Counted from the first letter of the stretch, positions 6,309 to 59,536 are shown. The stretch: DNA of 64,000 nucleotides from Spizellomyces punctatus DAOM BR117 (GCA_000182565.2 KQ257456.1); one strand, 5' to 3'. The notes: generated from the sequence alone by a model not told the origin. Numbers and translations: made by a program.

Positions 6309-9300
6309 CTAATTGACCTCCTCGGTCTCCGTGGCAGACTTTATGTGTGCCTCAATCTGCAATTCTTCCAGTGCGTCTGCAACGGCATCCCATGCCAATG
6401 TTTTTGCTACAGATTTCAGTTGACGTTCATGCGCCGGATCGGAGGGGTCACCTCCTTCGATTGTTGAATTATCTCCAAAATATCCACTGAGTAGCTTGTC
6501 TAAATAAGAATGACCAGTCTCAGCCTGCAACTCTATTGCCCCTTCAGATCCGCTTGCCGTTTGGTCAGAGAATGCCTCCTCACCGGGTTGTGCACCCTGA
6601 GGTGCGTTCTGCTCATCCGCACTAGCATCCATGAGGCTAGGGACATTTGCCGTTGGCACGGCTTCCTCAACAACGGGTGGCCTCGCATCCATGATGTCAG
6701 CGTTGTCCTTGTCACACTGCAAGTCAACGTCCATAGAATAACTTGGGCTCATTAAATTTTCGGGCGGCTGCTCGTCCATGAAACTACCGTCAATACTTCT
6801 TGGGCTGGATTCCGTGGTTGCGTCGGAGCCCAGATAAGCTTCGTCTTCATGACCGACACTGCCCGATATGCCATTAGAATCCTCTCCCTCACCTTCGTTT
6901 TTTGGCCGTTCCGATGCCACATGTGCTTCTGTCTGCAATGTGGTTGCAGGACCATGGTCAGGCCGTTCGGTGTCATCCTCCACATCGGCTCCGGAATCCC
7001 CTGCTCTGCGGTCCCCCAAATCGGGCTCGATATCAGACAGTTCGGTCTTGGTAGACATCTCCTCAGTCGACCCTGAATGAGGTTCGTTCAAATTTAGACG
7101 AGAGCGCTGAGGTTCGAGACCGTCCATAGCCAATGTCTCATCAGCGCCTGGTTGTTGCTCGCCATCACTGGAATCCGTAGTTGGCCCTGAATCAGGAATT
7201 CCCGTGCAGCCCGCATCGCTTTTATCGACTTCATTTGCACCAAAGTCCTCGGGACCCTTGGCTTTTTCTACCTCTTTGAAACATTGCTCTTCACCAGAAG
7301 CCGCAGAATCTCCCTCATGACCTTCGCTCAAATTCTCAGCTGTGTCGGCTACATCAGCGTCGTCTACATGCCCCTCTTTACCAGCACTAAACTCAACACC
7401 GATTGTGCTCATGCTACTAGGTTCATCCTTGTTGGCGTCGTCCGTGGTATTCTCTCCCAAGGGTTCTTCTACGGTTTGACTCATAGCGGCCCACTCCGAT
7501 AAGGCGCTCTCTGCTCCCTCGACAATTTCATAGACTGGATCGAGAACTGACTTCTCCCTCAACACCTCCGGCATTTGAGTACTGAGACGGACAGCAGACT
7601 CCGAAAGTTCACTGTTAATTTCGTCGATTGTGTGGTCCACAACATCGCTTTCGTTCGTGTGCGTTTCAAAGGAAAATCCTGAATCATGTGGTCTTCGGCT
7701 GGCTGCATAATCCTGTTCCCTGGTCTGCATCTCAGCGATGTATTCATCCTCTACCATTTGCATTTCCGCAATTTCCTCAGTGCCTTCTACTGGAATTATA
7801 GGCGGGGTGATATCGGGCGCATGCTGTGCTGGGGACCCCAAATCGCTTTGTGACGAATGCTGGGCAAATGAAGTGGAAGGTTGATTTGCTTCACTAGTGA
7901 TGGTCGTCTCGGGTGTTTCCGTAACCGCTGATTCCTGCGTGCTCTTCTCCTCGTCTGCCACTTCGGGAAGCGTGGGCCTAGGAATTCCAAATTCTTGGTC
8001 CTGGGCCAGGACATCCAACAGATCTCTACCTTCCGATGCCACATCGGCTGCCAAGGCGATCAAATCGTTTGTCTCTGTGGCCGAATCAAAAGTACGGTCA
8101 CCAGTCGTTGACTGCTGCGACTTTTCTGTTTCCACAATCTGAGTTGCCAACGCCATCTTCTCTTCCTCTACAGCGCCCATCATCCTTGAAAATGTGGTTC
8201 TTTCATCCTCTGAGTTACGCAACTCGCGCGTGAGGCGGATGCACTCCTTTCTAGCTGTTTCCAATTGGTCAGCCAAGTGTGAAGTACCAAGCTGCGACTC
8301 TTCCAGTTTTTGCGTCAATGAACTGACATTAGCCTCTTCTGCAGCTAGTTTCGTAGACACTGCCTCAGCTTTGCTTTCCACGGATGCCAGTCGAGTAGCA
8401 AGATCTTCGGCGGTCTTCTCCGCTTCATGTAAGGCATCTTTGAGAGTGGTGATGTTTCCTTCCGCCTCCAGCAGACTATCAGCTAGCATCGCTGACTTGT
8501 CTTTTTCTTCGGCCAATTGCTGAGACACTGCCTCAAGTTTTGATTCGGCGTCCGTCAATTGCAAGGATACCGCCCGTAACTGATTGGCAACCAGATTCGA
8601 CGAATTGGCCTCCACTTCAGCAATTTTGCTAGGGAAGTCGGCAATAATTCCCTCAGCTGTTGCAAGCTTGACGAGAACCTCTGCATTCACAGATTCGGCC
8701 ACTTCAACTGCCCTTGTGGCTGCTTCTAACTTCTCATTCATGATTTGTACGGCTTCCTGGAGTTCAGCATTATCTTTGCGCAGCTGGGAATTGGCATCAT
8801 CAGTTTCAGTTGATGCTTTCATCGCTTCTATAGTCGCTTGCAACTCAGCATTCTCTTTCTGCAGCTGGGAACTGACACCATCGGCTTCAATTGATGCTGT
8901 TTCCAATTTGGCTTTCATAGCTTCTATAGTCGCTTGCAGTTCAGCGTTTTCTTCACGTAGCTGGGAACTTGCAGCTTTGGCGGTCTCGACGCCCATTGAT
9001 GCTGCATCTAGTTTGGCTTGCATCATTACTATGGTCTCCTGCATCTCTGCGTTATCTTCATGCAGCTTGGAACTGGCAGCTTCGGCGTTGTCCGCACCAG
9101 TTGGTGCGTTGCTCAGTTTGGATTTCAACATCTCTATAGTTTCCAAAAGCTCCGTGTTTTCCTCACGCAACTCGGCTACGTTCTGCTTCAAGGCAACCAA
9201 TAGATTTACATCATACCGCGAGATCTCCGCATTGAGTCGGTCATTATCGAGCTTCGTTTCAGCAAGCTGCTGCTGCAAAGCTGCCAACTTGGCATTATCT

Positions 9301-11051
9301 TCCTCTAGCTCGTGAATATACGCCTGCCTTTCAAAGAGTTCCTGTTCCAAAGCGGCTAGCCTTCTATCCTTCTCCTCCAGCTCGCGGGCGCGCGACTCTC
9401 CTTCAATGTGAGGATCCTTGACCGCATCTTCTTCCCTGTTCTTCTTCAGTGCGTTGACAACTTCCGTAAGTCTCTCAATCTCCTTGGGAAGTAGAGATAG
9501 TTTAGTGTTTTCGGCATTCAACTCGATTACATCCTTTTCCAAATCGGACAGACGAGCATTCTCTTCCTTGAGCTGCTCAATTTCTCTTGCGGTGGTTTTC
9601 TCCACGTTTACTAATTCATCGGCGACAACGGATAACGCTGCATTTTTCTGTCTAAGAGAGTTAACCTCCTCCTCTAATGGACCTATTTTCGAGTTCATCT
9701 GTTTGAGATCCTCAAGCTGAGTCTGTAGCCGCATGAGGTTTGAATTTTCTTGCTCTAGCGTCGCGATCGTTGCCTCCAAAATCGCGATTCGTCCGAGATC
9801 GTTTCGCAAGACTTTTACTTGTTCCTCCAAGTCTGGGATCCGCTCGTTCTCCGCCTTGAGTGTTATAAGCTCCATTTTCCCTTCAACTAATCGCATATTC
9901 TCTTCTTTCAGTGCCGCAAGCTCCTTTTCCGTTTCCCCTAGCTTCCTGAGGGCATCGTCGCTTTTGCTAATCGGTGTCGCCTGGGTAGCGGCAGTTTGAA
10001 CTTTCACTTTTGAGGTTGCGACGGGTGTTTTCTTGGCCACCGTACTTGCAGACGGACCTGTCGAGTTCACTGTCGAGGTCCTCTTGCTAATGGGAGAAGA
10101 GACAGAACGCAATCCAGATGTTGTTGATGGCTGCGATACCACAGGTTTTGTTCCCACGGAACTCGTTGCCTTGCGAGATAATACTGAACTAGACGACGCT
10201 GTTGTCCTAGCTGTTGATGTTGGGGACGCAGAGGGCGTAGCTGAGCGCACTGCTGACGTTCCACGGGAAGATGCCTCCTTGCGTGATCCAGTCGTCGGTG
10301 AGGACTTTTCGCTCGTGGATGAGGGATGTGTTAGTCTTCGAGATAGCGGTTCCCTTTCGGGCTTTTTTGAGGTAATCGGTACGCTCCAATGGGCTACACT
10401 TTTTGAAGTCGGAGCCGTCTTGGCAGGATCCTTCGCTGCTACTGCAGACACTTTCCGCACGCTTTGAACTGGGGGCGATACAGATCCGCGTGTGGATACA
10501 CGCTTGCTTCCTGTTTTACTGTCGATCTGGCCGGTGGTAGGCAGCGTCTTGGATGAGGCTGTTGTCTTGGATACCACGGGTCGGGTAGTAGGTTTTGCAT
10601 TCGGACGGCGTGCAGAAGGTTTGGTCTTGCCGTCCGGCTTCGGTAGAGTGTCTACATGTGGCGAACTGCCGGCGTTCGCCGCATCACTCCCACCTGTGGT
10701 CTGTGGACCCTGGTTTTCGAGGGGCGTTTCTTCAATGGTTGTTCCCAGAGAACCTTCCTCAACTGCTGATTCTAGGGGACTTTCGTCAACTGTTGTTCTA
10801 ATAGGACTTTCTTCAACAGTCGTTTTTGGCGGACTCTCTTCAACTTCGGATACTGGGGGACTCTCTTCAACCGTTACAGTTCCTAGATCATTGAGTTTCG
10901 GCTCTTCCGTCGTGTCGTCAATTCCTGGTGGTGCCGCCTCCACTTTTGCATATTCACCCGGATCTTCTGCATTCTCCGCGTTCGATCCCAACATGGCTGT
11001 CAAGTTATCCCTACTATCAATTGTAACATGGGATCCAGCGTTACCACCCAT
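6309..11051 (-). CDS. large coiled-coil protein (~1580 aa) with basic S/T/K-rich segment and acidic tail; unknown function
   Basis: One uninterrupted 4.7-kb ORF. It has a long heptad region, internal repeats (VEESP; SSQLREENAELQATIEAMKAKL) and an acidic disordered C-terminal third. The start is uncertain (first ATG ~11051, or an upstream exon). Confidence 0.8.
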   Translation of the reverse strand: MGGNAGSHVTIDSRDNLTAMLGSNAENAEDPGEYAKVEAAPPGIDDTTEEPKLNDLGTVTVEESPPVSEVEESPPKTTVEESPIRTTVDESPLESAVEEGSLGTTIEETPLENQGPQTTGGSDAANAGSSPHVDTLPKPDGKTKPSARRPNAKPTTRPVVSKTTASSKTLPTTGQIDSKTGSKRVSTRGSVSPPVQSVRKVSAVAAKDPAKTAPTSKSVAHWSVPITSKKPEREPLSRRLTHPSSTSEKSSPTTGSRKEASSRGTSAVRSATPSASPTSTARTTASSSSVLSRKATSSVGTKPVVSQPSTTSGLRSVSSPISKRTSTVNSTGPSASTVAKKTPVATSKVKVQTAATQATPISKSDDALRKLGETEKELAALKEENMRLVEGKMELITLKAENERIPDLEEQVKVLRNDLGRIAILEATIATLEQENSNLMRLQTQLEDLKQMNSKIGPLEEEVNSLRQKNAALSVVADELVNVEKTTAREIEQLKEENARLSDLEKDVIELNAENTKLSLLPKEIERLTEVVNALKKNREEDAVKDPHIEGESRARELEEKDRRLAALEQELFERQAYIHELEEDNAKLAALQQQLAETKLDNDRLNAEISRYDVNLLVALKQNVAELREENTELLETIEMLKSKLSNAPTGADNAEAASSKLHEDNAEMQETIVMMQAKLDAASMGVETAKAASSQLREENAELQATIEAMKAKLETASIEADGVSSQLQKENAELQATIEAMKASTETDDANSQLRKDNAELQEAVQIMNEKLEAATRAVEVAESVNAEVLVKLATAEGIIADFPSKIAEVEANSSNLVANQLRAVSLQLTDAESKLEAVSQQLAEEKDKSAMLADSLLEAEGNITTLKDALHEAEKTAEDLATRLASVESKAEAVSTKLAAEEANVSSLTQKLEESQLGTSHLADQLETARKECIRLTRELRNSEDERTTFSRMMGAVEEEKMALATQIVETEKSQQSTTGDRTFDSATETNDLIALAADVASEGRDLLDVLAQDQEFGIPRPTLPEVADEEKSTQESAVTETPETTITSEANQPSTSFAQHSSQSDLGSPAQHAPDITPPIIPVEGTEEIAEMQMVEDEYIAEMQTREQDYAASRRPHDSGFSFETHTNESDVVDHTIDEINSELSESAVRLSTQMPEVLREKSVLDPVYEIVEGAESALSEWAAMSQTVEEPLGENTTDDANKDEPSSMSTIGVEFSAGKEGHVDDADVADTAENLSEGHEGDSAASGEEQCFKEVEKAKGPEDFGANEVDKSDAGCTGIPDSGPTTDSSDGEQQPGADETLAMDGLEPQRSRLNLNEPHSGSTEEMSTKTELSDIEPDLGDRRAGDSGADVEDDTERPDHGPATTLQTEAHVASERPKNEGEGEDSNGISGSVGHEDEAYLGSDATTESSPRSIDGSFMDEQPPENLMSPSYSMDVDLQCDKDNADIMDARPPVVEEAVPTANVPSLMDASADEQNAPQGAQPGEEAFSDQTASGSEGAIELQAETGHSYLDKLLSGYFGDNSTIEGGDPSDPAHERQLKSVAKTLAWDAVADALEELQIEAHIKSATETEEVN

Positions 11052-12100
11052 ATCGCGATCGTTGTTCACTTATCGCCAGGTACTCTTACTTACCAACGGG
11101 TACGCAGGCAGTAACCCTATGGAAACTGATACGCTGCTTTGCCGGAAGGGCGTGTTTGGTTGATGGCAGGGGTGGCTGTCCGTGCCAAAGGGTTTGAAGT
11201 GCAACGGGCGCGGACATTGCTCCCAATGCACAACGATTGCCGCTCGAAACGTTTGATGGCTTAGTCGCGTTAAATGAAGTAACCACGTGCCTTGAAAACG
11301 CAGTTAGTTTATTTGTATTTCCAGAGGGTTTACGACAGCACATTGTGAAGCCAGATTTTGGCAACTATGGAATATCAGATGTACGCTGTGTGTTGGTAAT
11401 CGAGGAATTGTGTTGAGGGGAGCGGAGATCATTTGGAGCATTTCCTTGATTGCGGGTGACGTATGAAAAGATTCTATAATCATCATTGGAATGCCTTGCA
11501 CATGATATAGTAATACAGCCGTCTTTTACGTCCCCCACAGCTCAAAATCCACCGCTCACATGCAGGGAAGGGGGCATTAAACCTGTGGCAAAAGAGAACG
11601 CCTTTGCGCGTGCCTGGTCTCCGTAAATGTCCGAACGAGAAGCACGGAACTTTGTCAGATTGCGCCGTCGCCGCTGGTGGACAAGTCCTTTTTTAGTTTT
11701 TATAGCGCGCTGACGGGGACTCTTTCCATGTGAGTGTGCGACAGGCTAAAGCGTGCACCGAGTGTGACAGTGCGACCTGGTGGAGTTTGGTGCGTAGGTA
11801 ATCACCGACGCGTGAGCTGCACGGTCCCGGTTGTTTCCGCTTACCTCCGCTTTCAGTGCCCTCGCGTGATCGTTTTCCTGCTGTTTTCGTAGTGGTGGAA
11901 GGCTTTCCAACCTGCCAATCTCCAACAACTTGCGCAAGGGAGCGGACCGTGGAGGAAAAAGGGAAAAGAATTTGACCAGAAAGCATTCGTCTGGCGTCAT
12001 TCTTCCTTTGGGGGGATCCAAAAGTGACAGACAATTTTCAGTTCGGCGATATCATTGCCACCAGAGCCCAACAGCAACAACAGCAACAACTAGACCGGTT

Positions 12101-15748: not shown

Positions 15749-18139
15749 TTATGCATTTGAGGCATCGTTGGCAGCATTGGCCTCGTTGGCGAGAACATCA
15801 TCGGGGTTGGTGGTTGGATCAACCACTGCGTCAGGGATTACTTCGACGTCCACAGAACTCGCAGGTGCAGCAGGAGTGGGGGCAAGTCCACTGGGTGCTG
15901 CCGGCGGCGCAGCGGCAGCTGCTGTGATTCCTGTCAGCGGCCCCGGAGGTGCACCTGGAGCCTTGTTTGCGCCATTCTGGCATTCGGGAGGTACGTCGAA
16001 GCTGTTCTTGAAAGGGAACTGGTTGGTCGCTGTCGCTCCCAATCCACGCTTAGCGAAAGCCGTCATGAGAAGGCACATGTTATCCCCCTTTGTCAACGCC
16101 TTCTCGGCAGCGATAATGGCATCACGAGCCTGGATCATGTCCGGGTTGCAGGGCTGAAGTTTCAAGCCATCAACAACATACTGGATCATGAGTGCGTTAC
16201 CCTTTCCACTCTGTGGGCCGTCCTGGAAATTCTCGGTGAAGCCTTTTGCGTCTACCATGTTCCAATAGGCCTCAAACAACATGGTATTCCAAACGGTGCC
16301 GACCTGGTGAACTGCCGCGAATTTTGGATCGTTCAATGTCTCGTAGGTGAGAGAGTTTGTCTTCTGGTTTGTGCTGTAAGGGATACCACGGACACCCTTC
16401 GGGCTGCCTGTGACATATTGTCCCACGGGCTTATCAGTATTACGATTGTCCTTGGCGGTCATACCGAACGAGACACCAAGGAAGTCAGACCATCCCTCTC
16501 CCATCCCACCGGCCATTAAGGTATCAAGACAGTTGGAGTTGGCAGGCCCGCCCGTCAAACGCATTGAGACTCCGTGGGTAAGTTCGTGGATAGGGACATC
16601 GTTGTCAAGCGTACCGTCCCGGCTGGGCCTTGACGTGTCGAAAATAAACATGCGCATCACACCGACCTGTCCGTCGGGAGGAGTGGCAAAGTTCGCATTG
16701 TTGACACCAGATCCATCTTGCGCATTGGCCACGACGGGATCCCTCTCTTTACCCCCTTTACCCAGGTTGGTGGCCTGGAAATTGCCCGCAGCTTCGGTAA
16801 AACCGTACTTGTACATGGTGTCATGGAAGAAGTTTGAAAGGAAGAACATGTTCGTGACGGATGCGTCCGTGTACGTTGTAGGTTCTTTACTGAGATCCAC
16901 TGGGAAATCAAAGTTGAAGTCGAGGGCGATAGGACGCTTGTTATTGAGTGGGTTTTTAGCGTTTTTGCGGTTCTCTTGTGCAACAACGTTGTTGCCTACG
17001 GTAGTGGGCAGGGAACCTGCACCATCTCCCACATCGTGCCAACCGAGGGGAGAAGAGGCTGGGTTGAAAGGATTGGCGATCAGGACCGGTGGTGTATCTT
17101 GTACGTTCTTGGAGCCGAAGGGAAGAGCACGGTACTTTGTGTCGGGAATTGTAGCGTTGCCACCGGTTTGGCGTCGGCGGAGCTTGACAAGATCGTCCAT
17201 GAAAGTGGTATGGTCGACCGGCTCATTGTCAAATATTGAGCGTCTAGCTGTGGGAGCCTTGGCGGCGGGCGCCGGCGGGTCCCAGAAGTTGGCGGTCTGC
17301 CAGTTGGCTTTGCCAATCAGTGCGCCATCCTTGACGGAAACGTAAGCGACGTGCCTGTAAGAAAAGTATGATCCAGTTAACTTTGTCCAAATCGACTGTT
17401 CTTTTTCATTTGACAACATACCAAGCATCGGGTCTCTGGACACTCAAGCTCCAGACCTTCTCCAAGGAAGTTTGAGTCTGGTATAGTTTAAGGTCGGCCT
17501 TGATGGCCGAATCAGCAAAGGCAGCCCCGGTGATGCTAAAGGAACCATCCTCATTCTTCTTCTCCGTGAGTTGACTAGCAGTAGTGGGGAAGCCAAACGC
17601 CTTTGCATAGCCTTCAACAGCTTGAGCTGCAGAAATCTCTGGACCAGGAATTTGGTCACGTCGTTGCAGCTTGGTCACCGGAGCCCAGGCTTGGGATGCC
17701 ATGACTGGATTTCCAAACGAGTCCATATGAACATCAGCATTAGAATTGACAATCGTAAGTCCATCCACTTGCTGGGCAGCGTAGTAGTGATACAAGCCAT
17801 TATGGCTATCTTGATAGCTGTATTTGATGAATGAGCAACAATGCACTAGCAGGGACGGATTTGTAGAAACACCTACCCGCTCTGCATCGCACCGCCTGTC
17901 AAGTTGAACGTGTTGGACAGCCAGTTGCTTGCTGCACCGGCAAAGTCGGACGGTGCCAACGGCTTGGCGTCAAACTTTGGTGGAGCATTGCCATCAGGTT
18001 TCCAGGCGCTGGCGGGTGGCTGATAGTAACCGACTTCATTTCCTCGCCGAACAAAGTGGTCAACGGGATGCGCCAACGCAGTGGTAGCGAGGCCCAGTGC
18101 TAAATAAGCACCACTTCCAAGAAAACACTTGCGACCCAT
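15749..18139 (-). CDS. fungalysin (peptidase M36) zinc metalloprotease, secreted preproenzyme
   Basis: Signal peptide and an FTP-type propeptide (HYYAAQQVDGLTIVNSNADVH). Catalytic region has GFTEAAGNFQ, NNANFATPPDGQ, HELTHG (HExxH), GMGEGWSDF, VHQVGTVW, GLKLQPCNP and FAKRGLG. Two short introns. Confidence 0.95.
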
Positions 18140-35869: not shown

Positions 35870-35960
35870 GCACAACTTACTGGATAGTGTATTAGGTGAC
35901 AGAAAATGGCACTAGCTACTACACCAGGGAATAAACCGGCGACAACCGGTTCGGAAAAGC
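35870..35960 (-). ncRNA. putative Fanzor omega-RNA: 76-nt scaffold (35960-35885) + ~15-nt flank-derived guide UCCAGUAAGUUGUGC
   Basis: GCTTTTCCGAACCGGTTGTCGCCGGTTTATTCCCTGGTGTAGTAGCTAGTGCCATTTTCTGTCACCTAATACACTA, with stems AACCGG/CCGGTT and GTGTA/TACAC. Near-identical to copy B and resembles the SpuFz1 omega-RNA as recalled. Confidence 0.72.
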
Positions 35961-36525
35961 AACTAGCTAGCCCTTACAACCAACCAACTACTACTGGGCC
36001 CAATTACACATGCAATACATTACGGTTGTTCTAACCGGGTAACTAAGCCCACCACACGAGAGAAATCCTACTAAGCCCTTGATTCCGAAATTCTTTAGTT
36101 GGAGGATGTTCAGATACTAATTAAACCAGAATTAGACTGGGAATACGGGCGTGGGAAAATCAGCAAGAAATACCTGCAATCGTTGCAGCATAGTAGTAAT
36201 AGTGTTTGCAAGGGGTTATGTTGTTGTTGTAGTCGGGAGGGCGAGGTCCTCGACACCAGAGTGGCATTCTCATGATGGACTGAGATGTGTTGGGCAGATG
36301 CTTGCGAGTCGAGGATGGGTAAAGAGGAAGGAGGGAAGAGACAGCAAAGGCCCCCCTTTTATAGACCTTCTGCATGCGCCTCACCGCAGTTTAAAAAAAA
36401 AAAACATTACAATACATGCCACACCGTGTTGAGCGATAGAGGGGGTGCTGATTATGCGATATGACTAACCGGAGTAATCCGGATAATAATGAGTTCTAGT
36501 GCCATTTTCAATCACCTCCACACTA
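35885..36525 (-). mobile_element. non-autonomous TIR element, putative Fanzor1 'ghost' locus (copy A)
   Basis: TA at 35885-86 and 36524-25. Left end TAgtgtggaggtgattgaaaatggcactag; right end (rc) TAgtgtattaggtgacagaaaatggcactag. Homologous to 57540-58281. No transposase or nuclease ORF. Confidence 0.85.
36357..36363 (-). promoter_or_regulatory. TATA box inside ghost element A
   Basis: GGTCTATAAAAGGGGGGCC on the minus strand, identical in both copies, ~85 bp upstream of the shared ATG. Confidence 0.55.
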
Positions 36526-36635
36526 TTGAAGTTGGCGAGTCATGACGGTAAATTGCACGCTGTTGCCATGCCAACAAGCTTATGTTGAGTATGCAATGTG
36601 CAATCTTGGCCAACGTCGTTAAGAAATTGGAATAA

Positions 36636-39600
36636 ATGGCCGGAGGGAGCGCGGCTCGAGCGAACAGGCAGAAGAAAGGGAAGAGAAATGCTAATGGAAA
36701 GAGAGGCAATAAGGATCGTAAGACTGGAGACCGGAGAGGTGGCAAAGATGTCGAGCGTCGGGGAGGTGGTTTTCGAGGTGTCGAGCTGGTTTGGAATCCC
36801 GTCACTGGGGAGGTAGTAGAAATAGGGAAGAAGCAAAGTGCAATCTTGAAAGAAAAAGAGAAACGTCAAATGGCTCGAAAATGGCAGCAAGCAACGAAGT
36901 CCAAAAAGGAGGAGTTGCCACGACTCCATTTGACCCGCCCCGTATTTAAAAGGTTGGCCACTATCCTATCAAATTATCATGAGGCACAGAAAGTCCTAAG
37001 ACAAGTGGAGGAAGGCGATGACGATGATTACGAGGAAGATGATGAGCAGGATATCGACCCTGGAATGGAAGAGTTGATAAGGGATATCAATGGTCCGCGT
37101 TTCTACCACGACGAGAACAAGTACAACGGAGAGTCGGACGAGGAGGATTTTCAAAGCGATGGGAGTAGTGAACAATCTTCTTTAGAGGATGGGGAAGATG
37201 CTGAGACAAATGATAGTGAAGACGACGTCGATGAAGGATTTGATTACAGTGATGATGAAAGCTCCACAGGCGAAACCACCACTGAAGACGTAGGTAGTGG
37301 GTTCGAAGGCACAGCGACGCAGCATCGTATGATAATCAATGCCCCCACCAAATTGACAAGGCCTCCACCGTCAGTTGGCGGGCGAGAACACGACTCCATG
37401 GAACTGCCTTTTTCCGATACATCTGTGCACGCCGACAGCATTAGTCGAGCATGGCTGGAGTCACTTGGATTTACAACTCGACACGCAGTCGTTGCGCTAC
37501 AACGCTGTAACAATGATCAACTCGCTGCTTTGTCATACCTATATTCGCAGGTTGTCGATTCGGAGTTCGTGCTATCCAGTGACTGCGTGGCCACTGACCC
37601 CGAGTTCGCGGATGAAGCAAACGCCCTGCGGGAGCAGGAATGCAAAGAATTAGAAAGCGTGTATGGGAAAAGCTTCACTCGTTATACCAGACGAGATGGT
37701 ACCCTCGTGTGGCAGATTACCGGAATAGAGGTAGAGGTTCCAGGGCTCACCCAATCGGCGCTCCATCTTGCGCTGCAGTTGCATCATCCCAAAAATACAA
37801 TGTATCCCTTTCAAGCCCCGGTTGTTGTGCTAGACTGTAGCAATAAACCGGAGGGAATCCAAGCAGGACTCCTGTCGCTTGCGATTTCGCTGCAAATGAG
37901 AGCCAGGGACCATCTGGGTGAAACAGTGATGGATATGTTGGCATCCGCCCTTCAGACGAACGAGGCACAGGAGTCACTGATAGCGCCATCTGTACGCATA
38001 CGCAATATCGTAGCACCAGGCTGGGATGCTACTGGAAGAAGTGAGCAAAAACGTGTTCTCGTGATTAAGGGGCACAGAGAAAAGGAGAAGGAGAAAATTA
38101 CTCAGGGTCCCAAGATTCGGTTGCATAAAGGTCCTAGAGGCGGTGTGCCGACTATGGACATGATTAGACGTGCCCAAGAAGTGGCAATATGTTTGAAGGA
38201 GGATCAAGGAACTGCGAATCTTGTTACCGGCATTGTTGGCAAAGGTACGGGATTGTACCGCTAGACCCTTTTTAGGGTTCGTTGGTCTAACGTTTAGAGA
38301 TGTGTTTCTTTCAAAAGTGTTGACGCGCGGTGATCATCCCCGGGGGATAAAGGTTCAGCTCACAGATGGTCGAGTGGGTCGTGTACAGGCACTAGTCGAA
38401 AGGTGCATAACTGTCGAACCGAGACCGCAAAATTCGAAAGATGCGCCCATCCTTTCTACTCGTTCTGCTGCTCGAGACATGACAACTCCAAACCGTAGCG
38501 GACCGCCGAAGGCACCAGATCAGTCAGAGCTAATAGCTCCTCTGCAGCAAATGCGGATCAATCCCTCAGTTGTTCAGAAACCAATGGATTCAAGCTCTAT
38601 GCCGAAAGGGCGGGTGATACCAGGAAAGCTTCGCAAGCCGCCACTTTCTGCCGCAGAGATTTCGTTGGAGAATGAAAAGCTTCACAAAGAGTTCATTGCG
38701 CAACAGCAGAGGCCCCAGTATAAAAAAATGCGAAGCGAACGTGAGACTCTGCCTGTGTGGAAATGGCAGCAAGATATTGTCAACGCGGTGGAAGAGAATC
38801 CGGTGGTCGTTGTAGAGGGAGAAACCGGCGTAGGTGCCCATTCCTCATTTGTCCCGCTACTTAAACTTAGGGTGTACCTTCCCTCAGTGCGGTAAAACCA
38901 CGCAAGTACCGCAATTTCTGTTGGACGCTTTGATCTGCCAAAAACGGGGGGCTCAATGTAAAATCCTGGTCACCCAACCGCGGCGCATCAGTGCTATTGG
39001 TGTGGCGGAGCGTGTTGCTGCGGAGCGTGATGAAAGCTTGGGGAAGACGGTCGGATACCAAATTCGGTTAGAGAACCGGATGAGTGATGCAACCAGGATT
39101 CTCTTTGCGACAACTGGGATTTTACTCCGTCGTTTGGAAGGGGCCGGTGCCCGATCAGTATCGGGGTTCGGAGCCGAAACGTTGACCGATGGTGAGGGTT
39201 CGATGTAGCCAACAAAAGATTGTTTGCGATAAATACCTCACACATTTTTTTGCATAAATGAGATCATGAAGGTGGTATCGATGATTTAACACACATCATT
39301 GTCGACGAAGTTCATGGTAAGTTGGCAGCTAGATCTCCCAAGATCGCAATAAGTGGACTTATAATGTCTTCACGTTCAGAACGATCGATTGAATCTGACT
39401 TTCTACTGATGGTCCTCCGCGATCTCCTGCTTACCCAGCCACGCTTAAAACTGGTCCTTATGTCGGCCACTCTCAACGCTGAGCTCTTCCAAGCATATTT
39501 CGGTCAAGCTCCTCGTATTCATGTACCCGGCAGGACGTAAGCTAGGGGTTTCCGTGATAGTGTTAAACTGAGTGCTAATCCTCTTTAAGATTCCATGTTC

Positions 39601-57248: not shown

Positions 57249-57539
57249 CATTGGTGATGATTTTCTTTTACTTGTCTTTTTTTTTAATGTTCACTACTGG
57301 AGCTTTTTTCTCTTTCATATTTTTCTGTCTGGCCGAGTTACCGTCGAAATGCTTTTGTCGGTAGAGGGTTGGATGATGGGATATGGAGATGGTGTCTAAT
57401 ACTTCTGTGCGGGTTTGGAGTTATCAACCGTTATTTTGTACAATGGTTTTTCGTTTTTCTTTATTATAATAAGACTCTAGGTTGGAGGAACCATGCGGAC
57501 CCCCCTCGGCACTCGCGTCAATTGGCTTTTAGCCTTTCA

Positions 57540-58281
57540 TAGTTTGGCGGCGATTGAAAATGGCACTAGGACCCATTATTATCCGGATTAATCCGGTTAA
57601 TCATATCGCATAATCAGAACCCCCCTCTATCGCTCAGATTGGTGTGGCATGTATTGTAGTGTTTTTTTTTTAAACTGCGGTGAGGCGCATGCCAAAGGTC
57701 TATAAAAGGGGGGCCTTTTCCCTCTTTCCTCTTTACCCATCCTCGACTCGAAGCATCTGCGCAACGCTCATTGCGACCCACACAACCTCATCGCGACTCG
57801 GTCAACCATGAGAACGCCGATGTGGTGGTGTCGAGGACCTCGACCGCCCGACAGCAACCGTGATCAGAACCAGCGGCAACCAATCGGATCCGATAACAAA
57901 ACCTACTATTATACTGCCACATTAGTTGAGCTTGGTTGGTATGTATCGATGGCATTTCTTGGATTTCTTGTCATCGGGTCACCTCGCTGACATGCAGTTT
58001 TTTTTAGTCTCCAAGCCTTGTCACTGAAAATCCACCAGCTTGTGACGCTGCCCAGTCGATTCGCTCCTGGTTGCAAGAGTCTGGCTTCAATGCCATCAAG
58101 AGTTCTGGATCAAGGCCTAGTAGGGACCGCGTGTGGTGGTGGGCAGTTATCCGGTTAGAACAACCGTTACGTATTGCGTGTATAATTGCCTAGTAGTAGT
58201 TAGATAGCTTTTCCGAACCGGTTGTCGCCGGTTTATTCCCTGGTGTAGTAGCTAGTGCCAGTTTCTGTCACCTCTACACTA
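57540..58281 (+). mobile_element. non-autonomous TIR element, putative Fanzor1 'ghost' locus (copy B)
   Basis: The left junction reads CATA (57538-41), and there is a TA at 58280-81. TIRs TAgtttggcggcgattgaaaatggcactag and (rc) TAgtgtagaggtgacagaaactggcactag match at 23/30. Homologous to 35885-36525. Confidence 0.85.
57701..57707 (+). promoter_or_regulatory. TATA box inside ghost element B
   Basis: GGTCTATAAAAGGGGGGCC, conserved with copy A and followed by a pyrimidine-rich stretch. Confidence 0.55.
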
Positions 58282-58296
58282 CTTTAGCGTCATGAT
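58207..58296 (+). ncRNA. putative Fanzor omega-RNA: 75-nt scaffold (58207-58281) + ~15-nt flank-derived guide CUUUAGCGUCAUGAU
   Basis: GCTTTTCCGAACCGGTTGTCGCCGGTTTATTCCCTGGTGTAGTAGCTAGTGCCAGTTTCTGTCACCTCTACACTA, with stems AACCGG/CCGGTT and GTGTAG/CTACAC. The first 54 nt are identical to copy A. Confidence 0.75.
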
Positions 58297-59536
58297 ATGC
58301 GTTGATCACCCTGGAAATTAATAAATGTTTTTTTAAAGGGGACGCTTTGCTCATTGGTTCGCGCTTCCCACCTCCTTCTGCAAGGAGAGCGATTTGGTTT
58401 TTACTTGGTGGGATCATCTCTTCAGGTACAGAAGAGACAAACAAAACAAACTTCCAATTCATGTAACCAAATTCCATTAGAGAAAAAGGTTTCATTTTCC
58501 ACACACGTGAATTGCCCTAAGCGCTTAGGTACATGAACTGTCTCAATGTTTCAAAGCGTGTTTTTGTTACATCCTATTTGACATGAATTCATTCCGTAGG
58601 TGGTTCAAAGATTCATCCGAAAAGACACTAAATATTTGGGAAAGTCGGTAGCAGTATCGATGAGAAAGATAATAGAGATACCCCATTATATTGCATTGTA
58701 GGAGAAGCTATTGCTTTGTTCGTATTCACAGGGTGGAAGCTGCTGGTGGATGGGCGCAAGTTTTGTCCTTTTTGAGACTGGTTCTGTTTTGTTCCATATG
58801 TCGAACTGAGCTGATAGTTGACGGGCGCAACCCACATCCTTTACTGGAGTGTAATGGGGAGCAGGATTGAGCATGTCTCGTGCCACTTCAGCTTACTATA
58901 ATCATCATCGTTCACCCTTACACCCTGTTTTGGCCTGGGATACGACAATATTGACACCGACCCTTTGTGTGGTGGAAATGCTGGGGACAGGGAGATGGTT
59001 CGCGTTGGACGATCTCACCATTTCCTCGCCACGCGTGAAGGTAGGCGCGAAGCTAAGCTCGTTGCGCCCACCGGCCCGACCGCCGATCATGTCAAAAAAA
59101 GGCAACTCTTGGGAAAGAGACACGCGAGACAACAGATAAAAGCAAAAAAATAAAAAGCTTAGCGTTTCCTTATTAGGGCAAATAAGGCAAGCCATTCAAT
59201 GAACGAATGAACGGAAAAGCCACTGGCCGAGATGATTTACAAGTTTATTGAGGTTTGTGAAACTTGCATCTTTTTTTATTTTTTTTTTAGTTGAGATTTG
59301 TTTCTTGTAAAGAACAGTTTGAAGTGTGAAAAGATTCCCACGGGTTAGACTCAGCGCCGATCGTCCGCAGGATGGGCGCGGTCGTAGCGGTGCGCAAGCG
59401 GACTTGTTGGACGGGAGAATATAAAAGGCTTTGCTGGATGCCCCAATGCCCCGTCCACAAGTGTAGATTTGCACATTTGACAATAGTTTTGATATTTTCA
59501 TCGCGAAACTTCTATGAAAAAAACCTCTGTTGCAAG

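What the first reader, a model, noticed from the sequence alone, without database searches (positions are those of the whole stretch)
57538..58296. Fanzor-type 'ghost' element B: nuclease-less TIR element ending in an omega-RNA scaffold, inserted at a CATA TAM
Seen: a 742-bp segment bounded by TA dinucleotides with ~30-bp imperfect TIRs and no transposase or RuvC ORF. Its last 75 nt fold into two stems (AACCGG-ttgtcg-CCGGTT; GTGTAG...CTACAC) and end in CACTA exactly at the right boundary. The left junction reads CATA. Knowledge: Fanzor1, the eukaryotic TnpB-derived RNA-guided nuclease of Spizellomyces punctatus (SpuFz1), uses a CATA TAM, lies in TIR elements, and has an ~75-nt scaffold overlapping the right end plus a ~15-nt guide read from the flank. 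ORF-less 'ghost' copies are described for it. As I recall it, the SpuFz1 scaffold (UUUUCCGAGCCGGUUGUCGC...UCCCUGGUG...GCUAGUGCCA...CACUA) closely parallels this sequence, with paired changes in stem 2. Inference: this locus makes a guide RNA (guide CUUUAGCGUCAUGAU) loaded in trans by a Fanzor encoded elsewhere, which would cut the empty allele CATA|CTTTAGCGTCATGAT.
Basis: partly seen in the sequence, partly recalled or inferred. Interest (0 to 1): 0.93.

Follow-up and report, generated by a model that had tools for sequence, protein, structure and literature searches.

The report
Known Fanzor ghost guide-RNA element
This 742-bp stretch of the soil chytrid Spizellomyces punctatus is a nuclease-less "ghost" copy of the Fanzor transposon that keeps the guide-RNA gene at its right end, a kind of element already described in this very genome in 2023, so it is real but not new.

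Summary
Window 57540-58281 is a 742-bp element with 30-nt imperfect inverted repeats (23 of 30 complementary) and TA at both ends. CA precedes the left end, giving CATA. It has no nuclease ORF. Its last 75 nt fold into two stems joined by a 6-nt linker (z -3.84; 0 of 200 shuffles as stable). A second copy lies at 36525-35885 on the minus strand, and homology between the two starts and stops exactly at these ends.

The window comes from Spizellomyces punctatus DAOM BR117: one ORF is 100% identical to SPPG_04344. Saito et al. 2023 (Nature) reported 134 "ghost Spu-1" loci in this genome with this same anatomy. They showed that 75-nt ghost scaffolds guide SpuFz1 (TAM CATA) in human cells.

Three things were not shown here: an RNA from this particular locus, cleavage of its empty site, and a direct alignment to the published scaffold (no sequence in the main texts; supplements closed).

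One possibly undescribed detail is that ghost copies look like small Pol II units. They carry a conserved TATA box and a 69-nt GT..AG segment that public contigs join across, with the guide RNA at the 3' end. Interest is low.

The parts
57538..57541 (+). CATA at the left junction: flanking CA plus the first TA of the element. This is the SpuFz1 TAM.
   Evidence: Read directly. The CATA TAM and the conserved CA upstream of the 5' IR are stated in Saito 2023.
57540..58281 (+). Ghost Spu-1 element B, 742 bp.
   Evidence: Bounded by the IRs. Homology with copy A starts and stops at these ends. The flanks are unique in the window.
57540..57569 (+). Left inverted repeat, 30 nt.
   Evidence: 23 of 30 complementary to the right IR; 0 of 200,000 random pairs as good.
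57701..57708 (+). TATAAAAG box inside a block that is 80-92% identical between copies A and B. Putative Pol II promoter (inferred).
   Evidence: A 0-mismatch contig of run X5 begins at 57730, 29 nt downstream. Contigs cannot prove a start.
57808..57938 (+). Exon-1-like segment that opens with ATG. It forms a pseudo-ORF, not a conserved protein.
   Evidence: 43 of 43 codons are identical to SPPG_08830 (P0121). Downstream frames differ between copies. No confident fold.
57939..58007 (+). 69-nt intron-like segment: GTATGT ... CTGAC ... T-run ... AG.
   Evidence: 4 contigs of X5 join across it with GT..AG ends. Two annotated paralogues read ...ELG|CLQ... across the same junction. Host introns have the same size and shape.
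58207..58281 (+). Omega-RNA scaffold, 75 nt: stem 1 at 58215-58234, linker at 58235-58240, stem 2 at 58241-58281.
   Evidence: Fold (z -3.84). Same architecture in copy A. The two stems, 6-nt linker A..C and 3-nt bulge match the text of Saito 2023. 15 of 18 nucleotides named in that text agree.
58252..58281 (+). Right inverted repeat, 30 nt, inside stem 2. Ends in CACTA.
   Evidence: The X14 contig diverges right behind 58281.
58282..58296 (+). Predicted 15-nt guide, read from the right flank (CTTTAGCGTCATGAT).
   Evidence: The position follows the 14-15-nt rule of Saito 2023. It is unique in the window at 0 mismatches. Expression from this locus was not shown.
35885..36525 (-). Ghost element A, 641 bp, the second copy in the window. 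Scaffold at 35960-35885, guide at 35884-35870, left junction AATA.

Best explanation
Window 57540-58281 is a non-autonomous 'ghost' Spu-1 element of Spizellomyces punctatus DAOM BR117. It is almost certainly one of the 134 ghost loci reported by Saito et al. 2023.

Anatomy: it has the family's 30-nt inverted repeats and lacks the Fanzor1 nuclease gene. At its right end it carries an omega-RNA gene: a 75-nt scaffold (58207-58281) continued by about 15 nt of flank (58282-58296) that serve as the guide.

Shown in print for the family:
- SpuFz1 binds the right-end RNA.
- SpuFz1 needs a 5'-CATA TAM.
- SpuFz1 works with 75-nt ghost scaffolds in human cells.

Shown here: this copy has the complete anatomy, an intact scaffold and CATA at its left junction.

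Inferred:
- The RNA is made from this copy, probably as the 3' end of a longer transcript that starts after the internal TATA box.
- It is loaded in trans by SpuFz1 from one of the intact Spu-1 copies elsewhere in the genome.
- The complex would cut the element-free site CATA+CTTTAGCGTCATGAT. Repair from a filled copy would then restore the element, as in the TnpB 'cut-and-copy' model.

The enzyme that moves the element is unknown.
For: Organism: ORF 15749-17443(-) is 100% identical over 95% of its length to SPPG_04344 of S. punctatus DAOM BR117.

Anatomy:
- IRs of 30 nt, 23 of 30 complementary.
- CA before the left IR.
- No ORF longer than 94 codons and no Pfam domain.
- None of the 14 window ORFs of 250 aa or more has a TnpB/Fanzor domain.

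RNA:
- The scaffold folds as two stems plus a 6-nt linker, z -3.84, with a 3-nt bulge in stem 2. This is what Saito 2023 says of ghost omega-RNAs.
- The linker begins with A and ends with C at positions 29-34, as in their structure.
- 15 of 18 nucleotides named in their text agree, allowing one 1-nt indel.
- Copy A has the same fold, and 58209-58260 is identical in both copies.
- In other copies, seen as contigs, the stem-1 pair 58220/58229 changes G-C to A-T. Both changes lie on the single X14 contig. 58234 T>C turns a G-U pair into G-C.
- At all scaffold places listed as variable, B carries the majority letter.

Family facts: 134 ghost loci, four ghost scaffolds active with SpuFz1, CATA TAM; more than 100 ghost scaffolds re-analysed in 2026; putative TA target-site duplication of SPu-1; the donor-joint model for TnpB.
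Against: - No RNA specific to this locus was seen.
- I could not align the scaffold to the published sequence. It is not in the main texts and the supplements are closed.
- 3 of the 18 named nucleotides disagree: G22, C40 and G70.
- As a blind scan that fingerprint is weak. An unrelated site scores 14 of 18.
- The stretch between the IRs is 682 nt, against 'around 550 nt' in the paper.
- I could not confirm that this locus is in the paper's list.
- No empty allele, no excision and no transposase are known.
- Copy A has AATA rather than CATA at its left junction.
Confidence: 0.88

Rival explanations
1. Inert relic. B is a MITE-like leftover of a TA-targeting TIR transposon. Its right-end RNA structure is vestigial, and at this locus nothing is made or used.
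For: No locus-specific RNA was seen. No transposase is known for the family. Copy A has an off-consensus AATA junction. A and B have diverged to 36-52% column identity in the middle of the element.
Against: The ends and the scaffold are far better kept than the middle: 83-93% against 36-52%. Variation in other copies preserves stem-1 pairing. Many contigs are at least 99% alike to B (86 of 246 in X1), which suggests young copies. Ghost scaffolds are active with SpuFz1.
Confidence: 0.08
2. Small protein gene. The element encodes a protein of about 93-105 aa, like the annotated SPPG_08830 and SPPG_09412. That protein, not the RNA, is its cargo.
For: Two paralogous copies are annotated as proteins sharing exon 1 with B: 43 of 43 and 40 of 43 residues. 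Copy A keeps an ATG, and its exon-2 frame is the one used by SPPG_08830 (own reading of the sequence).
Against: B, SPPG_08830 and SPPG_09412 read three different frame paths after the junction. The two searches found no relatives beyond these two proteins (2 hits each). There is no Pfam family above cut-off. The Atlas model has pLDDT 0.32 and pTM 0.21. The AlphaFold2 mean pLDDT is 54.6 with 0 residues at 70 or above.
Confidence: 0.03
3. Host-recruited guide library. The ghost copies supply guides that direct SpuFz1 to sites other than their own empty sites, for example other transposons. Saito et al. raise this idea in their discussion.
For: The idea is in print. Ghost copies outnumber nuclease copies, 134 to 42.
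Against: B's guide has no other match in the window better than 3 mismatches, which is chance level: 4 matches found against 1.7 expected. The guide is simply the adjacent flank, as the homing model predicts. The whole genome could not be searched.
Confidence: 0.05

Closest known systems
Ghost Spu-1 elements of S. punctatus DAOM BR117 (Saito et al. 2023, Nature; PMC10432273)
   Same: Same genome. 30-nt IRs, CA before the left IR, no Fz ORF, 75-nt right-end scaffold with two stems, a 6-nt linker and a 3-nt bulge in stem 2, and the guide read from the flank.
   Different: Nothing defining differs. The interior is 682 nt against 'around 550 nt'. Presence in their list could not be checked. The TATA box and the intron-like segment are not mentioned in their main text.
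SPu-1 / Spu-1 Fanzor1 element (Bao and Jurka 2013, PMC3627910; Saito 2023)
   Same: TIR element of the same genome with TA at both ends (putative TA duplication) and an omega-RNA at the right end.
   Different: SPu-1 is about 2.1 kb and encodes the 633-638-aa nuclease; B does not. The paper says the ghost IRs differ from the Fz IRs at seven positions. Two ghost-internal peptide frames do not match SpuFz1 in the PDB. B has 268 nt before its ATG, more than the roughly 180 nt of non-coding DNA that a 2.1-kb locus with a 638-codon ORF can hold. B is therefore not a simple internal deletion (inference).
Bacterial PATE-like minimal IS200/IS605 elements that encode omega-RNAs but no TnpB (Meers et al. 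preprint, PMC10055086)
   Same: The logic is the same: a protein-less element keeps the guide RNA, which must be used in trans by a nuclease encoded in another copy. The target is the TAM plus the flank, i.e. the donor joint.
   Different: Those elements have no TIRs and no target duplication, move as single strands through a Y1 TnpA, and live in bacteria. B has TIRs and TA ends and sits in a eukaryote with no known transposase.
MITEs of Tc1/mariner-type transposons
   Same: Short, non-coding, TIR-bounded, flanked by TA, and present in many copies.
   Different: MITEs carry no guide RNA. No mariner-type transposase sharing these ends is known in this genome.

Membership tests
Ghost Spu-1 element (Saito 2023) | Lies in the S. 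punctatus DAOM BR117 genome. | tested here: met
   A window ORF is 100% identical to SPPG_04344 of that strain. Two ghost-derived paralogues are annotated in the same strain.
Ghost Spu-1 element (Saito 2023) | 30-nt inverted repeats at both ends. | tested here: met
   57540-57569 and 58252-58281, 23 of 30 complementary.
Ghost Spu-1 element (Saito 2023) | Conserved CA upstream of the 5' IR. | tested here: met
   CA at 57538-57539. Copy A has AA instead.
Ghost Spu-1 element (Saito 2023) | No Fanzor ORF between the IRs. | tested here: met
   The longest frame is 94 codons. No Pfam hit above cut-off. No match to SpuFz1 among PDB chains for the 2 frames tried.
Ghost Spu-1 element (Saito 2023) | 75-nt right-end region that folds as two stems plus a linker, with a 3-nt bulge in stem 2. 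| tested here: met
   Fold of 58207-58281, compared with the text.
Ghost Spu-1 element (Saito 2023) | Sequence similarity of the right-end region to the Fz-locus omega-RNA. | tested here: inconclusive
   Only a sparse check was possible. 15 of 18 nucleotides named in the paper's text agree with one indel allowed. That is the best site in the window, but an unrelated site reaches 14. The full sequences are in figures and supplements that I could not see.
Ghost Spu-1 element (Saito 2023) | Listed among the 134 loci (Supplementary Data 1-2). | not testable with these tools
Functional omega-RNA gene | An 88-90-nt RNA that runs from the scaffold into this locus's own flank. | not tested
   Only contigs of public runs could be laid. 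They cannot show RNA ends.
Tc1/mariner-type non-autonomous element | TA target-site duplication and TIRs shared with a DDE-transposase-bearing master copy. | tested here: inconclusive
   TA is present at both ends, but it cannot be told apart from IR sequence without an empty site. No transposase was found by the authors. The genome is not searchable here.
IS200/IS605 PATE | No TIRs, no target duplication, subterminal hairpins, and mobilisation by a Y1 TnpA. | tested here: not met
   B has 30-nt TIRs and TA ends. It works like a PATE but is not one.

The most novel reading that the evidence does not exclude
Ghost Spu-1 elements are not bare repeat pairs. They are self-contained Pol II transcription units. 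A conserved TATA box (57701-57708) drives a transcript that starts about 30 nt downstream and loses a 69-nt spliceosomal intron (57939-58007). Its 3' end carries the omega-RNA, which is then trimmed out. On this reading the ghosts form a separately promoted guide-RNA supply for Fanzor, distinct from the nuclease's own mRNA.

Support:
- The TATA block is 80-92% identical in both copies.
- The segment has GTATGT, CTGAC, a T-run and AG, like host introns.
- 4 contigs of run X5 join exactly across it, and none was laid inside it.
- Two annotated paralogues read across the same junction.

Caveat: X5 is labelled 'DNA?'. If it is DNA, the joints mean that some genomic copies lack the segment, which would itself be odd.

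In print: this is not mentioned in the main text of Saito 2023 or in the two papers that hold both 'Fanzor' and 'ghost'. Supplements were not seen.
Probability: 0.45. Interest if true: 0.4.

Novelty: already known. Interest (0 to 1): 0.15.

Why it matters
Fanzor is the eukaryotic RNA-guided nuclease now being developed as a compact genome editor. Ghost scaffolds from this genome are already the basis of an engineered 75-nt guide. This locus adds nothing new in kind; it shows that a tool-free reading can recognise such an element correctly.

The open biology is what ghost copies do in the fungus and how their RNAs are made. The hint that they carry their own TATA promoter and an intron would, if confirmed, say that the guide supply is transcribed and regulated apart from the nuclease gene. 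It would also give a concrete transcript model to test.

Tried and rejected
- Rfam: no family matched. There were 0 matches in the whole window at gathering score and 0 in 57400-58450 at E up to 10. Rfam seems to hold no Fanzor omega-RNA.
- Own-genome search for a nuclease-bearing copy: not possible, because no genome is held for this window.
- Published scaffold sequence: not in the main texts of the three papers searched for it or anywhere in the library.
- Metagenome contigs: 0 hits for a 23-nt stem-1 string and 0 for a degenerate 31-letter pattern.
- Ghost as a deletion derivative of the nuclease gene: two internal peptide frames gave only chance hits in the PDB (3 and 5 hits at E up to 10, none a Fanzor).
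- Ghost as a protein gene: rejected. See the rival explanations.
- Fingerprint of 18 named nucleotides as a blind scan: too weak. It scores 15 at B, 14 at an unrelated site and 13 at thirteen sites, including only 13 at copy A.
- Similarity of B's guide to A's left flank (12 of 13 letters): E 0.5, chance.
- Run X5 has no cover on B's right flank (58284-58500) and stops at 57511 on the left. A hole in contigs proves nothing, so this says nothing about expression of B.
- Summed contig depth in X5 rises about 100-fold from the left part of the element to the part after the TATA box, while X1 is even across the element. The tool warns that contig depth cannot rank parts of a gene, so I treat this only as a pointer for the novel reading.
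- Runs X7 and X14 each gave a single contig.
- Complex prediction was not used. The pair is a published complex and the partner is an RNA.

Full report
**What is there.** I read 57300-58500.

- The segment 57540-58281 is 742 bp. It begins TAGTTTGG and ends CTACACTA.
- Its terminal 30 nt are imperfect inverted repeats (57540-57569 and 58252-58281, 77% complementary, 682 nt apart).
- That is 23 of 30 matches. None of 200,000 random pairs of 30-mers from the window reached 23; the best was 20.
- CA at 57538-57539 precedes the first TA, so the left junction reads CATA.
- No frame inside the element is longer than 94 codons. The six frames I scanned have no Pfam family above cut-off.

**The RNA.**

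- The last 75 nt (58207-58281) fold into stem 1 (58215-58222 paired with 58227-58234), a 6-nt linker (58235-58240), and a long stem 2 (58241-58281) with a 3-nt bulge.
- Free energy is -23.4 kcal/mol and z is -3.84, with 0 of 200 shuffles as stable.
- With the 15-nt flank added, z is -2.57 (2 of 200).
- Controls are weak. The left-end 75 nt give z -0.93 and -0.46 on the two strands, and the antisense of the scaffold gives -1.86.
- Rfam has nothing here.

**A second copy fixes the boundaries.**

- Short strings from the ends and stem 1 recur at 35885-36525 on the minus strand.
- blastn of element B against the window finds only that copy, A, of 641 bp.
- In the alignment, homology begins at the first TA and ends at CACTA, and the flanks are unrelated.
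- Column identity is 86-92% over the first 150 nt and 80% over the next 50. It falls to 36-52% in the middle apart from one 70% bin (one bin is nearly all gap). It is 83-93% over the last 140 nt apart from an indel.
- Copy A folds into the same two-stem shape (z -2.60).
- A's left junction is AATA, not CATA.

**Where the window comes from.**

- ORF 15749-17443 (minus strand) is a fungalysin, 100% identical to SPPG_04344 of Spizellomyces punctatus DAOM BR117.
- No whole genome is held for the window, so I could not look for nuclease-bearing copies myself.
- None of the window's 14 ORFs of 250 aa or more has a TnpB/Fanzor domain.

**What is known.** From Saito et al. 2023 (PMC10432273) I read sections 7 and 10 in full and other passages by search. 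I saw no figures and no supplements.

- In this very strain they report 42 loci with full or partial Fanzor genes and 134 'ghost Spu-1' loci.
- Ghost loci have 30-nt IRs that differ from the Fz IRs at seven positions, a conserved CA upstream of the 5' IR, and a conserved interior of about 550 nt without the ORF.
- A 75-nt region over the 3' IR resembles the Fz-locus omega-RNA.
- Native small-RNA-seq showed 88-90-nt RNAs at four Fz loci, made of a 75-nt scaffold plus a 14-15-nt guide.
- SpuFz1 needs a 5'-CATA TAM.
- Ghost omega-RNAs have a stem 2 with a 3-nt bulge. Scaffolds from four ghost loci edited human cells as well as the improved canonical guides.
- Their structure has two stems and a 6-nt linker, A29 to C34.

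Other papers add to this.

- Bao and Jurka 2013 (passages) described SPu-1 as about 2.1 kb with 33-bp TIRs and putative TA duplications.
- A 2026 paper (passages) re-analysed more than 100 ghost scaffolds and engineered one.
- The key-resource table of the 2024 Cell paper (passage) lists an SpuFz target oligo with CATA directly before the guide match. That is the geometry assumed here.

**Match of B to that description.**

- Every stated feature is present: genome, IR length, CA, no ORF, 75-nt two-stem scaffold, 6-nt linker starting with A and ending with C, 3-nt bulge, and a guide taken from the flank.
- I could not align sequences because none is printed in the main texts.
- As a substitute I compared the 18 scaffold nucleotides that the paper names by number. 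15 of 18 agree if one 1-nt indel is allowed between positions 20 and 29.
- The three misses are G22, at the indel, and C40 and G70, in the distal stem 2 where the paper says ghost and canonical differ.
- At a place fixed beforehand this is strong. As a blind scan it is not: an unrelated site scores 14, and copy A scores only 13.

**Other copies seen through public runs.** I laid contigs of four coded runs on 57300-58500 at 90% likeness.

- X1 laid 246 contigs and X5 laid 376, so the element is a multi-copy family. 86 of the X1 contigs are at least 99% alike to B.
- X14, which carries a different organism code, has one 251-nt contig. It matches 58061-58281 with 14 differences and then runs into unrelated sequence right behind 58281. 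This confirms the right boundary.
- That contig carries both 58220 G>A and 58229 C>T, the two sides of one stem-1 pair. It also carries 58234 T>C (G-U to G-C) and 58217 A>G (A-U to G-U).
- The same variants occur in several contigs of X1 and X5.
- At each scaffold place listed as variable, B has the majority letter.

**How it most likely works.**

- Identity is close to certain.
- By the published family behaviour, the right end gives a roughly 90-nt omega-RNA that SpuFz1 from another locus binds.
- The guide equals the right flank, and the left junction supplies CATA. The one sequence the complex would recognise is therefore the element-free site, CATA followed by the flank.
- This is the donor-joint logic shown for bacterial TnpB (Meers et al. 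preprint, passages). Saito et al. discuss it for Fanzor as well.
- For this locus, transcription, loading and cutting are all inferred. No transposase is known.

**A detail that may be new.**

- Both copies keep a TATAAAAG box in a well-conserved block (B 57701-57708; A 36363-36356).
- Downstream lie an ATG (57808) and a 69-nt segment (57939-58007) with GTATGT, CTGAC, a T-run and AG. It has the same shape and size as two introns of the neighbouring fungalysin gene, which are 58-66 nt.
- Four X5 contigs join across this segment with GT..AG ends (skips of 69 and 73 nt) and none was laid inside it. X1 covers it in several variants and shows no joint.
- A 0-mismatch X5 contig starts at 57730, 29 nt after the TATA box.
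- Two annotated proteins of the same strain, SPPG_08830 and SPPG_09412, share exon 1 with B (43 of 43 and 40 of 43 residues) and read ...ELG|CLQ... across the same junction.
- These pieces fit a spliced Pol II transcript whose 3' end is the omega-RNA.
- The caveats are real. X5 is labelled 'DNA?', contigs cannot show RNA ends, and the gene models would look the same if those copies lacked the segment in DNA.
- The main text of Saito 2023 mentions no native promoter, intron or TATA.
- Literature searches for Fanzor with ghost (2 papers) and Fanzor with Spizellomyces and intron (1 review, listing only) found nothing on this. Supplements were not seen.

**The small ORF is probably not a gene.**

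- After the junction, B, SPPG_08830 and SPPG_09412 follow three different frame paths.
- The two searches return only those two proteins.
- There is no Pfam family.
- The Atlas model has pLDDT 0.32, and AlphaFold2 gives a mean pLDDT of 54.6 with no residue at 70 or above.
- Two internal peptide frames do not match SpuFz1 in the PDB.
- B has 268 nt before its ATG, more non-coding DNA than a 2.1-kb Spu-1 with a 638-codon ORF can hold.
- The ghost therefore looks like a sister lineage that shares its ends and scaffold with Spu-1, not a simple deletion product (inference).

**Verdict.** The element belongs to a family already published for this genome. Novelty: already known. Interest is low, apart from the testable transcript model for ghost copies.

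Noticed in passing
window 35885-36525 (minus strand): Second ghost element (A, 641 bp). It has its own guide (35884-35870) and an AATA rather than CATA left junction. Its left end lies 111 nt upstream of the ATG of an RWD-domain ORF (36636-38264).
   Followed up: yes
window 57591-57599 and 58149-58157: The 9-mer ATCCGGTTA occurs near both ends of element B in direct orientation. CCGGTT occurs 4 times in the 742 bp, out of 15 in the whole 64-kb window. These could be binding sites for the unknown transposase, or part of the RNA precursor.
   Followed up: partly
Read laying, run X14 on window 58061-58281: A run with a different organism code holds a ghost-like right end 94% alike (14 differences in 221 nt) with a different flank. 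The family is therefore not confined to the source assembly.
   Followed up: partly
window 58320-58325: AATAAA lies 39 nt beyond the right end of element B. It is a possible poly(A) signal for a read-out transcript. Copy A's flank has none at the matching place.
   Followed up: no
window 8734-9086, inside ORF 6309-11069 (minus strand, 1586 aa, no Pfam hit): Four diverged direct repeats of about 71 nt at 81-105-nt spacing, inside a very long ORF without any known domain.
   Followed up: no
window 15749-18139 (minus strand): Fungalysin (M36) metalloprotease gene SPPG_04344 with two short introns (about 58 and 66 nt). These served as the host intron reference.
   Followed up: partly
window 36539-36553 compared with 58282-58296: B's guide resembles a stretch 14 nt outside A's left end (12 of 13 letters). 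The E-value is 0.5, so it is taken as chance.
   Followed up: yes
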